Assembly: GCA_016212855.1 (NCBI GenBank)
Contig: JACRDP010000003.1
Location: 29,283-93,282 of the forward strand
DNA length: 64,000 nucleotides
Source: Elusimicrobiota bacterium
GTDB lineage: Bacteria > Elusimicrobiota > Elusimicrobia > UBA1565 > UBA9628
Reading direction: 5' to 3'
The notes under the pieces are model-generated. The model was given only the letters and a program-made list of their open reading frames with translations, made no database searches and was not told the origin of the DNA. The translations under genes and the position numbers were made by a program. Below, in pieces: positions 37,053 to 57,630 of this stretch. Position 1 is the stretch's first letter; every line of letters starts with the position of its first letter.

Positions 37053-37068
37053 CGCAACGCGACGGCCA
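37053..37068 (-). promoter_or_regulatory. Sigma-54-type promoter TGGCCGTCGCGTTGCG
   Basis: Predicted +1 near 37042, giving a 46-nt leader with a Shine-Dalgarno sequence before ATG 36996. Confidence 0.6.
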
Positions 37069-37091: not shown

Positions 37092-37107
37092 TGGCGCATA
37101 CGTTGCG
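37092..37107 (+). promoter_or_regulatory. Sigma-54-type promoter TGGCGCATACGTTGCG
   Basis: The -12 C (37106) is 14 nt before ATG 37120. Confidence 0.6.
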
Positions 37108-37119
37108 GCGCGTCGAATC

Positions 37120-37320
37120 ATGACATTCTCGCCGACCGAGCCGAGCCGCGATAAGGACGCGGAAATCGCCCGCTTGCTCGGTGAACTGGCCGACCTGACC
37201 GGGGAGGAGGAGGCCCTCGCGGCCTATCGCCGCGAGGCGGAGGCTTTCGAGCCCGCCGTCTCCACCGAAAGCATCGCGCGCGCCCTTCTCGCGCTTGAAA
37301 AGGAGGCGGGGCCGCCATGA
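37120..37320 (+). CDS. Small acidic hypothetical protein (66 aa), coupled to the HD-GYP gene
   Basis: ATG sits at the leaderless position of the sigma-54-type promoter. ATGA overlap with the next gene. Confidence 0.4.
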   Translation: MTFSPTEPSRDKDAEIARLLGELADLTGEEEALAAYRREAEAFEPAVSTESIARALLALEKEAGPP

Positions 37321-39344: not shown

Positions 39345-39360
39345 CGCAACGAAAACACCA
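39345..39360 (-). promoter_or_regulatory. Sigma-54-type promoter TGGTGTTTTCGTTGCG
   Basis: Predicted +1 near 39334, giving a 15-nt leader with GGAGG. Confidence 0.55.
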
Positions 39361-39374
39361 CGCCCGCGTCACGT

Positions 39375-39390
39375 TGGCCGAATGGTTGCA
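39375..39390 (+). promoter_or_regulatory. Sigma-54-type promoter TGGCCGAATGGTTGCA (pilT operon)
   Basis: Near-consensus motif. The -12 C (39389) is 14 nt before GTG 39403. Confidence 0.65.
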
Positions 39391-45318: not shown

Positions 45319-45816
45319 TCAGGCCGGCACGGTGCGCGCGCGACGGCCGAGCTCGCGCAACAGACCCGCCGGAAGGCGGGCGCGCAGCTCCGGGAACACG
45401 ACGTTCTCCTCGTAGACCATATGCGCCTCCAGCTCCTCGCACAGGCGGGAGAGAACGGTGCGCAGGCGGTACACGTGCTCGCCGTCGCCGCTGGCGGCGA
45501 CGGCGCCGAAGAGCTTCGTCATCTCCATGACGGCGCGGTGTCCTTCCTCGATGGCCGCGGACAACGCGGGGTCCATCCCGGCTTGGCGCAGCACCCGCGT
45601 CAAATACGCGTCCTCCATGGCCTCGTGAGCCTTGAACTCCGTGAAGAAGCGGTCCAGCGCGCGCGCGAACAGCTTGCGGTCCGCCGTCGCGCGATCATCC
45701 CACCCGATCCCGCTGGGGCGGTCGATCAGGACGGTCAGAAACGCGAGCGTGCCGCGGAGCTTTCCGTGGCCTTCGAGCAGGCGGTCGATGATATCCATGT
45801 GCCTCCGGACGGGCAT
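45319..45816 (-). CDS. Hemerythrin-like (HHE cation-binding) domain protein
   Basis: Spaced H/E pattern (HGKL..., FKAHEAMED, IEEGHRAV, LEAHMVYEE). The start was chosen at the ATG that coincides with the predicted sigma-54 +1. Longer starts (45864, 46011) overlap the divergent promoter. Confidence 0.6.
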   Translation of the reverse strand: MPVRRHMDIIDRLLEGHGKLRGTLAFLTVLIDRPSGIGWDDRATADRKLFARALDRFFTEFKAHEAMEDAYLTRVLRQAGMDPALSAAIEEGHRAVMEMTKLFGAVAASGDGEHVYRLRTVLSRLCEELEAHMVYEENVVFPELRARLPAGLLRELGRRARTVPA

Positions 45817-45826
45817 CGGGACGGGG

Positions 45827-45842
45827 CGCAACGCTTCGTCCA
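45827..45842 (-). promoter_or_regulatory. Sigma-54-type promoter TGGACGAAGCGTTGCG (hemerythrin)
   Basis: The -12 C (45828) is 12 nt before ATG 45816. Confidence 0.5.
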
Positions 45843-45852
45843 ACGCGACGAT

Positions 45853-45868
45853 TGGCCGGTTCATTGCA
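45853..45868 (+). promoter_or_regulatory. Sigma-54-type promoter TGGCCGGTTCATTGCA (PAS-GGDEF)
   Basis: Near-consensus motif. The -12 C (45867) is 14 nt before GTG 45881. Confidence 0.65.
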
Positions 45869-45880
45869 CACCCGCAGGGC

Positions 45881-46921
45881 GTGAGCCAGGCGGATTTTCC
45901 GGCGCTGTCCATCTCTGCGTGGCAGGTCATCCAGGCCATGCGCGACGGCGTCGTGCTCACCGACCCGCGCGGCTCGATCATGGCCGTCAACGACGTCTTC
46001 TGCGCCGTCACCGGCTACGCGCGGGACGAAGTCATGGGACGAAACCCCCGCCTCCTCCATTCGGGAAGGCACGATCACGCTTTCTACTGCCGCCTGTGGT
46101 CCGACGTCCTGAAAACCGGCGTCTGGCAGGGCGAGATATGGAACCGGCGGAAAAACGGCGAGATCTACCCGGAATGGCTCACGATCAGCTCGATCAAAGA
46201 CGCGTGGGGACACACCCGCTGCTATCTCGGGGTTTTCCGCGACATCACGAGCCCGAAGCTCGATGAAGAACGGCTCAAGCATCTGGCGCAGTACGACGCT
46301 CTCACGAGCTTGCCCAATCGCCGCACCTTCACCGAACGGCTCAAGCGCGTCCTGGCGAACCGTCCGGCGCAGCATCGGCTCGGCATCCTCTTTCTCGACC
46401 TCGACCATTTCAAGGACATCAACGACCGGTGGAGCCACAGCGCGGGCGACGCGTTCCTGCAGGCGGTCGGCGCGCGCCTGCGCTCCTGCGTGCGGCGCAG
46501 CGACTACACGGCGCGCTGGGCGGGAGACGAGTTCGCCGTCCTGCTCCACCCCGTCGCCGGGCGCCGGGGCGCCGCGCGCGTCGCGGCGAAAATACTGCGC
46601 GCCCTGCGGCGGCCGTTCAGCGTTCTGGGCCGCCGGACCAAGATCTCCGCCAGCGTCGGCGTCTGCCTGTACAACGGCGAGGGCTCGGCGGAACGGCTGA
46701 TCGACCGGGCGGACCGGGCGATGTACGCGGTCAAGGAAAAGGGGCGCAACGACGTCGGCTTCTGGTCCTCGGCCGTTTCGTTGCGGCGTCGTTCGGCGAC
46801 CCCTCAGAGAGGGGCCGCCGCAAAGGACGTAAAGAAGGACCGGAACACGCCGCAGGCCCGGACAGGGATGGGGTCCATGAGACGGCGATCCGGAGTTCGT
46901 AAAGGGCCGAGCGGTTCGTAG
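45881..46921 (+). CDS. PAS-GGDEF diguanylate cyclase (motif reads AGDEF). The C-terminal ~55 codons run through the next promoter and leader.
   Basis: PAS region (VLTDPRGSIMAVNDVFCAVTGYARDEV) and GGDEF domain (LFLDLDHFKDINDRWSHSAGD, RWAGDEFAVLL, DRADRAMYAVKEKGRN). Alternative start ATG 45938. Confidence 0.85.
   Translation: MSQADFPALSISAWQVIQAMRDGVVLTDPRGSIMAVNDVFCAVTGYARDEVMGRNPRLLHSGRHDHAFYCRLWSDVLKTGVWQGEIWNRRKNGEIYPEWLTISSIKDAWGHTRCYLGVFRDITSPKLDEERLKHLAQYDALTSLPNRRTFTERLKRVLANRPAQHRLGILFLDLDHFKDINDRWSHSAGDAFLQAVGARLRSCVRRSDYTARWAGDEFAVLLHPVAGRRGAARVAAKILRALRRPFSVLGRRTKISASVGVCLYNGEGSAERLIDRADRAMYAVKEKGRNDVGFWSSAVSLRRRSATPQRGAAAKDVKKDRNTPQARTGMGSMRRRSGVRKGPSGS
46770..46785 (+). promoter_or_regulatory. 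Sigma-54-type promoter CGGCCGTTTCGTTGCG (leader copy 1)
   Basis: Correct GG/GC spacing. Predicted +1 near 46796, 156 nt before ATG 46952. Confidence 0.55.
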
Positions 46922-53036: not shown

Positions 53037-53052
53037 GGCAACGATCCGGCCA
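53037..53052 (-). promoter_or_regulatory. Sigma-54-type promoter TGGCCGGATCGTTGCC (P-type ATPase)
   Basis: The -12 C (53038) is 13 nt before ATG 53025. The core is identical to the rhodanese promoter. Confidence 0.6.
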
Positions 53053-53085: not shown

Positions 53086-53101
53086 TGGCCGGGATGTTGC
53101 G
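53086..53101 (+). promoter_or_regulatory. Sigma-54-type promoter TGGCCGGGATGTTGCG (hsp20-ubiB)
   Basis: Predicted +1 near 53112, giving a 19-nt leader with GGGAGGGAGG before ATG 53131. Confidence 0.6.
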
Positions 53102-57018: not shown

Positions 57019-57034
57019 CGCAACGAAACGGCCC
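57019..57034 (-). promoter_or_regulatory. Sigma-54-type promoter GGGCCGTTTCGTTGCG (USP)
   Basis: 15 of 16 nt are identical to the leader copy-1 promoter. Predicted +1 near 57008, giving a 26-nt leader. Confidence 0.55.
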
Positions 57035-57049
57035 GGTCTCCATGTTGCG
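57034..57049 (+). promoter_or_regulatory. Sigma-54-like element CGGTCTCCATGTTGCG pointing antisense into the CBS gene
   Basis: Correct GG/GC spacing and abuts the minus-strand promoter. No credible plus-strand gene lies downstream. Confidence 0.3.
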
Positions 57050-57614: not shown

Positions 57615-57630
57615 TGCAACGTTCCTACTC
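57615..57630 (-). promoter_or_regulatory. Degenerate sigma-54-like element GAGTAGGAACGTTGCA (CBS gene)
   Basis: The -12 half is good, but the -24 position reads AG. Predicted +1 near 57604, giving a 29-nt leader with a Shine-Dalgarno sequence. Confidence 0.3.

What the first reader, a model, noticed from the sequence alone, without database searches (positions are those of the whole stretch)
45827..45868. Back-to-back divergent sigma-54-type promoter pairs separated by only 0-32 bp
Six divergent gene pairs are each served by two opposed motif copies with very short gaps:

| Minus-strand copy | Plus-strand copy | Gap (bp) |
|---|---|---|
| 37053-68 | 37092-107 | 23 |
| 39345-60 | 39375-90 | 14 |
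| 45827-42 | 45853-68 | 10 |
| 53037-52 | 53086-101 | 33 |
| 57615-30 | 57649-64 | 18 |
| 57019-34 | 57034-49 | abutting |

Two closed sigma-54 holoenzyme complexes could hardly occupy such pairs simultaneously. There is also no room for a shared upstream activator site between them, so any enhancer must lie inside the flanking coding regions. The arrangement suggests mutually exclusive or coordinated firing. An alternative reading is that the paired GCAAC...GTTGC half-sites also form a binding site for a dimeric regulator.
Basis: seen in the sequence. Interest (0 to 1): 0.6.

Follow-up and report, generated by a model that had tools for sequence, protein, structure and literature searches.

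The report
Back-to-back sigma-54 promoter pairs
In an uncultured groundwater Elusimicrobiota bacterium, neighbouring stress and low-oxygen genes that point away from each other each have their own sigma-54-type promoter, and the two promoters lie only 0-35 bases apart with no room for the usual activator site; the layout is kept across a whole bacterial order but is untested at the bench.

Summary
The observation mostly holds. Four of the six listed pairs (37.05, 39.35, 45.83 and 53.04 kb) are two full outward-facing -24/-12 motifs, each with a gene start just downstream (4 found, 0.00 expected). The 57615 copy lacks the -24 GG. The 57034 copy has no gene to drive, so that site is a single promoter.

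The motif (TGGCCG-ttTCG-TTGC) marks about 45 promoters in two islands of this 2.5-Mb genome. The second island encodes a short, diverged sigma-54 paralogue, a PAS kinase and an NtrC-type activator, and that sigma gene carries the motif itself.

Back-to-back pairs recur on two other contigs and in related genomes of the same order. Across 40 pairs the gap runs from -1 to 35 bp with no helical phasing. It drifts even between orthologous pairs (10, 10, 10, 8, 1), while both motifs stay conserved.

I read the pairs as two independent promoters packed together. They are compact because many of the mRNAs are leaderless and no enhancer lies between the promoters. No shared activator site was found in the flanks.

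The variable gap rules out the dimeric-regulator reading. Steric exclusion is possible only for gaps under about 14 bp and remains untested. No RNA data exist.

The parts
45827..45842 (-). -24/-12 promoter (TGGACGAAGCGTTGCG) for the hemerythrin-domain gene. An ATG lies 10 nt after the motif (leaderless). An in-frame ATG with a GGAGG ribosome-binding site lies at 28 nt.
   Evidence: (score 18.1). Conserved in four congeners.
45853..45868 (+). -24/-12 promoter (TGGCCGGTTCATTGCA) for the PAS-GGDEF gene. A GTG lies 12 nt after the motif (leaderless).
   Evidence: (score 18.7). The motif and a start codon 11-12 nt downstream are conserved in congeners.
45843..45852 (.). 10-bp spacer between the two -24 elements. 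Its sequence is not conserved, and its length in orthologous pairs is 10, 10, 10, 8 and 1 bp.
45319..45816 (-). Hemerythrin-domain protein gene, the left arm of the focal pair.
   Evidence: (PF01814)
45881..46921 (+). PAS-GGDEF diguanylate cyclase gene, the right arm of the focal pair.
   Evidence: (PF00990, PAS)
37053..37068 (-). -24/-12 promoter for a 102-aa protein of unknown family. The leader is 56 nt and carries AAGGAGGA.
   Evidence: (16.8)
37092..37107 (+). -24/-12 promoter for a 66-aa ORF (ATG at 12 nt, leaderless) followed by the HD-GYP gene.
   Evidence: (16.1)
39345..39360 (-). -24/-12 promoter for the second PRTase-family gene. The ATG lies at 25 nt and follows GGAGGTG.
   Evidence: (16.7)
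39375..39390 (+). -24/-12 promoter for the PilT-like ATPase operon. The start is a GTG at 12 nt or an ATG at 30 nt.
   Evidence: (18.8)
53037..53052 (-). -24/-12 promoter for the P-type cation ATPase (ATG at 11 nt, leaderless).
   Evidence: (21.2)
53086..53101 (+). -24/-12 promoter for the Hsp20 gene. The ATG lies at 29 nt and follows GGGAGGGAGG.
   Evidence: 17.2; PF00011
57649..57664 (+). -24/-12 promoter for ClpB (ATG at 12 nt, leaderless).
   Evidence: (19.5)
57615..57630 (-). Degenerate copy (GAGTAGGAACGTTGCA, no GG at -24) upstream of the CBS-pair gene. It is doubtful as a sigma-54-type promoter.
   Evidence: It falls below the PWM threshold.
57019..57034 (-). Single promoter (GGGCCGTTTCGTTGCG) for the tandem-Usp gene, with the ATG at 36 nt.
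   Evidence: (17.4)
57034..57049 (+). Rejected copy (CGGTCTCCATGTTGCG). It points into the 3' end of the minus-strand CBS gene and has no plus-strand gene downstream.

Best explanation
Each pair is two separate, outward-facing -24/-12 promoters.

**Who reads them (inferred).** They are most likely read by RNA polymerase carrying a lineage-specific short sigma-54 paralogue. The neighbouring NtrC-type activator (REC-AAA+ with GAFTGA, plus an HTH_8 domain) most likely switches them on, under a PAS histidine kinase. The regulon holds about 45 promoters in two islands. It covers dormancy-type stress genes (Usp, Hsp20, CBS, ClpB, PpsA, hemerythrin, P-type ATPase) and anaerobic-metabolism genes (hemA, a radical-SAM enzyme, PFOR, MoeA, Rrf2).

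**Why pairs arise (inferred).** A pair appears wherever two regulon genes are divergent. It is very compact for two reasons. About half of the transcripts start at the start codon (shown: start codons lie 10-15 nt after the motif). No activator site sits between the promoters (shown: gap at most 35 bp).

**What the spacer shows.** The spacer is free in length and sequence (shown). The two promoters therefore need no fixed mutual geometry and are not one composite binding site.

**How activation reaches them (inferred).** The activator must act from solution or from distant or intragenic sites.

**Occupancy (inferred).** Pairs with gaps of about 14 bp or more can hold two closed complexes at once. 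Tighter pairs may compete or sit on different faces of the helix.
For: **Motif**
- It has GG-N10-GC sigma-54 spacing, and all its information lies in 15 nt.
- It is enriched only at that spacing.
- The PWM gives 40 sites against 3 in the control at score 16 or more.
- Sites lie in front of genes, with a sharp peak of start codons 10-15 nt downstream: 37 of 86 forwards against 5 of 72 in the opposite direction.

**Sigma factor**
- Two sigma-54-family genes and two GAFTGA activators are present.
- The paralogue has a region-I-like N-terminus, an ELH-HTH and an RpoN box.
- Its AlphaFold model matches only sigma-54 chains at the top of the PDB fold search (E = 5e-8).
- It is present in 75 of 81 genomes of the order.
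- It carries a conserved motif copy upstream of its own gene.
- It lies on the same contigs as pairs in relatives.

**Pairs**
- 4 in the window against 0.00 expected, and 8 in the genome against 0 in the control.
- They are conserved across the order.
- Gaps run from -1 to 35 bp with no phasing.
- The focal pair is kept in four congeners while its spacer drifts.

**No enhancer found**
- There is no enriched k-mer, dyad or NmpR-type site within -220 to +120.

**Literature**
- Truncated activators can work from solution (PMC3844500).
- Closed-complex DNA is ordered only to about -33 (PMC5505868).
Against: - There are no transcript data of any kind, so neither promoter activity nor simultaneous use is shown.
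- The activator next to the sigma gene has a DNA-binding HTH_8 domain. That predicts enhancer sites I failed to find. My searches used exact k-mers and exact dyads and could miss degenerate or split sites.
- Assigning the motif to paralogue 2 rather than paralogue 1 rests on gene neighbourhood and on the motif upstream of its gene.
- The bEBP ring sits over -24 to -12 and may overhang the partner promoter in tight pairs. Full independence at gaps of 0-10 bp is therefore uncertain.
Confidence: 0.65

Rival explanations
1. Tight pairs act as mutually exclusive switches. Only one sigma-54 holoenzyme, or one activator ring, can occupy a pair at a time. The two genes then fire alternately, or one promoter dominates.
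For: - About half of all pairs have gaps under 14 bp. That is less than twice the 7 bp of ordered upstream DNA in the closed complex.
- The activator hexamer sits over -24 to -12.
- The face-to-face pair in front of the sigma gene shows that this lineage does use overlapping promoters.
Against: - Gaps are spread evenly from -1 to 35 bp with no avoidance or preference.
- The orthologous focal pair drifts from 10 bp to 1 bp.
- Both arms belong to one regulon and are expected to be co-induced.
- Two enzymes 4-14 bp apart can face different sides of the helix.
Confidence: 0.15
2. The pairs are coupled bidirectional units. One activator assembly fires both arms together, or firing one arm helps the other through the negative supercoils produced by divergent transcription.
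For: - Back-to-back topological coupling has been shown for a sigma-54/sigma-70 pair (PMC5175336).
- Predicted start sites are only about 56-88 bp apart.
- There is no separate enhancer per arm.
- Both motif copies are kept even where the left-hand gene has been replaced.
Against: - There is no constraint on spacing or phase.
- Two thirds of the regulon's promoters work as singles.
- Nothing in the sequence requires coupling.
Confidence: 0.15
3. The inverted GCAAC...GTTGC elements form the binding site of a dimeric regulator, or the motif is read by something other than sigma-54.
For: - The pair is formally an inverted repeat.
- The -12 element is extended (CGTTGCG) compared with the textbook sigma-54 consensus.
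Against: - The half-site distance varies by 36 bp.
- Most sites are single.
- The motif is asymmetric and always points at a gene start.
- The exact GG-N10-GC spacing is needed for enrichment.
- A sigma-54 paralogue and GAFTGA activators are encoded in the island.
Confidence: 0.04

Closest known systems
Divergent sigma-54 promoter pairs with a shared enhancer: E. coli/Salmonella zraP-zraSR (ZraR) and hyc-hyp (FhlA)
   Same: Two outward-facing -24/-12 promoters drive co-regulated divergent operons under one activator. In Salmonella the zraP and hydH sites lie in one intergenic region. The hyc/hyp 'divergent NtrA-dependent promoters' of Lutz et al. 1990 are cited in that paper.
   Different: - In those systems the two -24 elements are about 150 bp or more apart (zraP 4388217-34 and hydH 4388385-402), and the activator sites lie between them (own knowledge).
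- Here the gap is -1 to 35 bp and holds no conserved sequence.
- Here the layout is repeated at many loci of one regulon.
NmpRSTU oxygen-responsive sigma-54 regulon of Myxococcus xanthus (PMC11841059)
   Same: A kinase-to-NtrC-type-regulator pathway drives a sigma-54 regulon tied to oxygen limitation.
   Different: - NmpR binds defined GCGCA-N5-TGCGC dyads upstream of each promoter.
- Such sites are not enriched here: 2 found against 2.0 expected.
- That regulon uses the cell's single RpoN.
- No back-to-back geometry is described in the sections I read.
Multiple RpoN paralogues with cognate activators, for example RpoN1-4 of Cereibacter (Rhodobacter) sphaeroides (PMC11999139, title and abstract only)
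   Same: A genome with more than one sigma-54, each encoded beside its own activator and serving its own gene set.
   Different: - Both paralogues here are unusually short (349 and 360 aa).
- They are so diverged that Pfam recognises only the DNA-binding domain.
- The regulon content is stress and anaerobiosis rather than nif or fla genes.
Back-to-back Po (sigma-54) / Pr (sigma-70) promoters of the dmp system (PMC5175336)
   Same: Non-overlapping back-to-back promoters communicate through transcription-driven supercoiling.
   Different: - Both partners here are sigma-54-type and much closer together.
- Coupling here is only a hypothesis.
Enhancer-independent activation by bEBPs without a DNA-binding domain (DctD250 in Salmonella, PMC3844500; FlgR of Helicobacter and CtcC of Chlamydia, from my own knowledge)
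   Same: Sigma-54 promoters are activated with no nearby activator site.
   Different: - The activator encoded beside the paralogue here keeps an HTH_8 domain.
- Only the second activator (C24:21401-22756) lacks a recognisable HTH.

Membership tests
sigma-54-dependent (-24/-12) promoter | Conserved GG and GC dinucleotides exactly 10 bp apart (TGGCAC-N5-TTGCW type) | tested here: met
   - The logo of 32 sites reads TGGCCG-ttTCG-TTGC.
- Enrichment appears only at the N8 spacing.
sigma-54-dependent (-24/-12) promoter | A sigma-54 gene and a GAFTGA-bearing AAA+ activator in the genome | tested here: met
   Two Sigma54_DBD proteins and two activators with GAFTGA.
sigma-54-dependent (-24/-12) promoter | Upstream activator (enhancer) sites, usually 70-150 bp upstream | tested here: inconclusive
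   - There is no room between paired promoters.
- No enriched k-mer, exact dyad or NmpR-type site lies within -220 to +120.
- Degenerate sites could have been missed.
sigma-54-dependent (-24/-12) promoter | Transcription starts about 12 nt downstream of the GC and depends on sigma-54 and ATP hydrolysis by the activator | not testable with these tools
   No RNA runs hold this sequence.
Divergent sigma-54 pair with shared enhancer (zraP/zraSR, hyc/hyp type) | Two outward-facing sigma-54 promoters in one intergenic region | tested here: met
Divergent sigma-54 pair with shared enhancer (zraP/zraSR, hyc/hyp type) | Activator-binding dyads located between the two promoters | tested here: not met
   - Gaps are -1 to 35 bp.
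- Spacers are not conserved between orthologous pairs.
Sigma-54 (RpoN) protein family, for the paralogue at C24:102704-103786 | C-terminal ELH-HTH and RpoN box (ARRTVAKYR) | tested here: met
   - PF04552 matches at 2e-14.
- A profile search hits PDB sigma-54 chains at 3e-9 over positions 203-355.
- The RpoN box reads SRRTVNAVR.
Sigma-54 (RpoN) protein family, for the paralogue at C24:102704-103786 | N-terminal region I, the target of the activator | tested here: inconclusive
   - MKQ..QRL..LEKDPLF aligns weakly by eye and by profile to E. coli residues 1-50.
- Pfam Sigma54_AID does not reach threshold.
Sigma-54 (RpoN) protein family, for the paralogue at C24:102704-103786 | Overall sigma-54 fold, including the core-binding domain | tested here: met
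   - The AlphaFold model of an 80%-identical orthologue has pLDDT 77 and pTM 0.75.
- The top 31 PDB fold matches are all sigma-54/SigN chains, with E down to 5e-8 and alignments of up to 429 columns.
- TM scores are low (0.3), as expected for a flexible multi-domain protein.

The most novel reading that the evidence does not exclude
This Elusimicrobiota order runs a whole sigma-54 regulon without promoter-proximal enhancers. Its back-to-back pairs would then be true bidirectional units. Two holoenzymes would load within zero to three helical turns of each other. The same activator assembly would fire both, acting from solution or from a few distant sites in the island, on transcripts that are largely leaderless. 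That would be a minimal form of enhancer-dependent transcription not described in model bacteria.
Probability: 0.2. Interest if true: 0.75.

Novelty: new variant of a known kind. Interest (0 to 1): 0.5.

Why it matters
Textbook sigma-54 promoters need an activator bound 70-150 bp upstream and a DNA loop. Here dozens of promoters, in many genomes of one order, leave no space for that on their upstream side. Where two of them meet, the whole control region shrinks to about 60-90 bp between two start codons.

If the promoters are active as predicted, they give a natural series of spacings from -1 to 35 bp. That series could be used to ask three questions:
- How close can two sigma-54 closed complexes and their AAA+ activators sit?
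- Does activation need an enhancer at all?
- Do divergent sigma-54 promoters help or hinder each other?

The finding also ties a very diverged, self-regulated sigma-54 paralogue to a hypoxia or dormancy-type programme in a phylum with almost no experimental genetics.

Tried and rejected
- **Shared enhancer.**
  - Counts of 6-8-mers and of exact inverted or direct dyads (half-sites of 4-6 nt, spacers of 0-16) within -220 to +120 of 32 promoters gave nothing beyond multiple-testing noise.
  - The first dyad run timed out.
  - Repeating the search with 75 promoters from relatives was dominated by orthologous sequence around the sigma gene. It was not usable, except that it showed CGCAAC enriched upstream, which reflects partner promoters.
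- **NmpR-type GCGCA-N5-TGCGC sites.** 2 found near promoters against 2.0 expected.
- **Phylogenetic footprinting of the focal pair.** Only the two motifs stand out. Conserved blocks further right are PAS-domain coding sequence.
- **RNA evidence.** Only DNA runs of the source groundwater study hold the sequence, and no RNA run was found.
- **Comparison with other divergent intergenic lengths in the genome.** My crude longest-ORF gene calls give many negative distances, so this comparison is not informative.
- **Long repeats in the island.** No shared non-coding element appeared apart from the three small-RNA-like copies already noted by others.
- **Literature.** I found no report of sigma-54/sigma-54 promoters less than 40 bp apart in the searchable library. 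This does not prove that none exists.
- **Genome-wide count of the loose motif.** TGG-N8-TTGC gives 246 hits, no more than at the N5 or N11 spacings, because of codon periodicity. Only the PWM, or the motif with the extra G, separates signal from noise.

Full report
**1. What is in the sequence**

The shared word is TGG-N8-TTGC, the sigma-54 spacing.
- It occurs 21 times in the 64-kb window against 5.0 +/- 2.4 in shuffles.
- With one more base of spacing it is not enriched, at 4 against 5.
- The composite back-to-back pattern occurs 4 times against 0.00 expected in 100 shuffles.

A logo of 32 good sites reads T-G-G-C-C-G-t-(t/a)-t-C-G-T-T-G-C. There is no information upstream of -26 or downstream of -12. 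The element is directional and asymmetric.

**2. Which of the six pairs are real (gene families)**

| Pair | Gap (bp) | Left arm (-) | Right arm (+) |
|---|---|---|---|
| 37053 / 37092 | 23 | 102-aa protein, 56-nt leader with a ribosome-binding site | 66-aa ORF starting 12 nt after the motif, then HD-GYP |
| 39345 / 39375 | 14 | PRTase-family protein | PilT-type ATPase operon |
| 45827 / 45853 | 10 | hemerythrin protein, ATG at 10 nt | PAS-GGDEF, GTG at 12 nt |
| 53037 / 53086 | 33 | P-type ATPase, ATG at 11 nt | Hsp20 |

These four are solid. The other two are not.
- In 57615 / 57649 the plus copy is a good ClpB promoter, but the minus copy has no GG at -24.
- In 57019 / 57034 the minus copy is a plausible Usp promoter. 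The plus copy faces the 3' end of the minus-strand CBS gene and drives nothing. That site is a single promoter.

**3. The regulon and its likely machinery**

The window is contig C28:29283-93282 of a 2.5-Mb, 66% G+C, 73%-complete MAG. Its relatives are uncultured Elusimicrobiota, mostly from groundwater.

A PWM scan gives 40 sites at score 16 or more, against 3 with a reversed PWM. The sites concentrate in two islands: the window at 30-58 kb and contig C24 at 59-104 kb.

The C24 island carries the motif in front of hemA, a radical-SAM gene, a YwiC-like gene, PFOR, moeA, an Rrf2 regulator and an acetyl-CoA hydrolase.

The C24 island also encodes the likely regulators:
- a PAS histidine kinase;
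- an NtrC-type activator (REC, an AAA+ domain with ESELFGH and GAFTGA, and HTH_8);
- a 360-aa sigma-54-family protein.

A second short sigma-54 (349 aa) lies elsewhere on C24, beside an activator with no recognisable HTH.

The 360-aa paralogue has these features:
- a region-I-like N-terminus (MKQSQKLSLAHSQRL...LEKDPLF);
- an ELH-HTH and an RpoN box reading SRRTVNAVR;
- an AlphaFold model of an 80%-identical orthologue (pLDDT 77) that matches only sigma-54 chains at the top of the PDB fold search.

It is found in 75 of 81 genomes of the order. In most of them a motif copy (TGGCCGttATATTGCT) lies about 45-60 nt upstream of its start codon, so it probably activates its own gene. In several relatives the pairs lie on the same contig as this gene. 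On these grounds I assign the motif to this paralogue. That is an inference, not a demonstration.

**4. The pairing is a property of the lineage**

In the own genome a relaxed scan finds 8 back-to-back pairs. Besides the four in the window they are:

| Pair | Gap (bp) | Genes |
|---|---|---|
| C10:9819 / 9838 | 3 | fatty-acid-hydroxylase-like / di-iron protein |
| C24:59771 / 59822 | 35 | hemA / radical SAM |
| C24:62429 / 62448 | 3 | YwiC / PFOR |
| C24:94799 / 94824 | 9 | weak minus copy / Rrf2 |

The same scan finds one face-to-face pair and no tandem pairs, against none of any kind with the reversed PWM.

The strict pair pattern is present in 22 of 401 genomes of the phylum. Eighteen of these, about 29 pairs, lie in the window's own order, where the reversed-pattern control gives 2 hits (6 of 401 genomes phylum-wide).

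In relatives both arms usually have a start codon 11-16 nt after the motif. Partners are swapped between genomes. YwiC is paired with PFOR, with malic enzyme or with a receiver protein. A PorG-like gene is paired with three different genes.

The focal hemerythrin/GGDEF pair is kept in four congeners, with gaps of 10, 10, 8 and 1 bp. Both motifs are conserved, the spacer sequence is not, and the left-hand gene has been replaced in some genomes.

**5. What the geometry says**

Forty pairs from this genome and its relatives have gaps from -1 to 35 bp. The gaps are spread evenly across the bins and show no 10-11-bp periodicity (Rayleigh p = 0.6-0.8).

The face-to-face pair in front of the sigma gene is the opposite case. 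It has a fixed gap of 9-12 nt (mostly 11) in 11 loci, and a characteristic TTCC in place of TTGC in one copy. Where geometry matters in this lineage it is conserved. In the back-to-back pairs it is not.

This excludes a composite site for a dimeric regulator. It also argues against any mechanism that needs the two promoters on a set face of the helix.

**6. Steric question**
- In the closed-complex cryo-EM model, DNA is ordered from about -33 to -5/-9 (PMC5505868). The T of TGG is at -26.
- Two back-to-back complexes would therefore share ordered DNA only when the gap is under about 14 bp.
- The activator ring sits over the DNA between -24 and -12 and may add some overhang.
- In the window, the 23- and 33-bp pairs should hold two closed complexes, the 14-bp pair is borderline, and the 10-bp pair overlaps. 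Two pairs elsewhere in the genome have 3-bp gaps and one has 9 bp.
- Whether overlap means exclusion depends on rotational setting and cannot be decided here.
- The even spread of gaps shows no selection against short ones.

**7. Enhancers**
- I found no shared k-mer, exact dyad or NmpR-type site within -220 to +120 of 32 promoters.
- The logo is flat upstream of -27.
- Activators that lack their DNA-binding domain can activate from solution, although less strongly (PMC3844500).
- The activator here does have an HTH, so distant, intragenic or degenerate sites remain possible.

**8. Comparison with known systems**
- Divergent sigma-54 promoters are known from zraP/zraSR and hyc/hyp. There the promoters lie about 150 bp or more apart, with the activator sites between them (own knowledge).
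- An oxygen-responsive sigma-54 regulon with defined dyads is known in Myxococcus.
- Several RpoN paralogues with cognate activators are known in Cereibacter.
- Supercoil-mediated coupling of back-to-back promoters is known for the dmp system.
- In the searchable literature I found no sigma-54/sigma-54 pairs less than 40 bp apart, repeated across a regulon and a bacterial order.
I did not test that note.

**9. Verdict**

The feature is real and non-random, and four of the six listed pairs stand. The best reading is two independent sigma-54-type promoters compacted back to back in a leaderless-rich, enhancer-poor regulon driven by a dedicated sigma-54 paralogue. Exclusion or coupling at the tightest pairs remains open. 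Everything rests on sequence and comparative evidence, and there are no transcript data.

Noticed in passing
L013:9641-9683 (G000 C24:102641-102683): Between the PAS-kinase/activator operon and the short sigma-54 gene lie two motif copies facing each other, about 11 nt apart. The leftward copy carries GTTCC instead of GTTGC. The layout and spacing are conserved in 11 related loci, so the two promoters should exclude each other. It looks like an autoregulatory switch.
   Followed up: partly
L013:9612-9660 (G000 C24:102612-102660): An inverted repeat, GTAGCAA ... TTGCTAC, spans the predicted 5' end of the kinase mRNA and ends 4 nt before its ATG. In more distant relatives both arms change together (TTAGCA / TGCTAA). 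This suggests a 5'-terminal hairpin or a protein-binding site.
   Followed up: no
G000 C24:21401-24001 (L010:6401-9001): A second short sigma-54-like gene (349 aa) lies directly downstream of a REC-AAA+ activator that has GAFTGA but no recognisable DNA-binding domain. No copy of the motif lies nearby, so this pair probably reads a different promoter set.
   Followed up: no
G000 C24:59000-104000 (L011-L013): A second promoter island places hemA, a radical-SAM gene, PFOR, a YwiC-like protein, MoeA, an Rrf2 regulator and an acetyl-CoA hydrolase/GNAT fusion under the same motif. This ties the stress genes of the window to anaerobic metabolism.
   Followed up: partly
window 37120-37320: A 66-codon ORF with high third-position G+C starts 12 nt after the 37092 promoter, and its stop overlaps the start of the HD-GYP gene (ATGA). 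It has no Pfam match.
   Followed up: no
L112-L116 compared with window 45319-45868: In three congeners the gene to the left of the focal pair has been replaced by unrelated genes, yet the leftward promoter copy is kept almost unchanged (CGCAACGCTTCnTCC). The promoter pair may behave as a cassette around which regulon genes are shuffled.
   Followed up: no
window 57034-57049: A -24/-12-like word (CGG...GTTGCG) is oriented antisense to the 3' end of the CBS-pair gene. It is probably chance, but an antisense promoter is not excluded.
   Followed up: partly
L066 (record CALRXP010000218.1): A contig whose sigma-54 paralogue is 86% identical to this genome's copy is titled 'Candidatus Endomicrobium trichonymphae'. 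That name does not fit its high-G+C groundwater-type relatives and is probably a labelling error in the public record.
   Followed up: no
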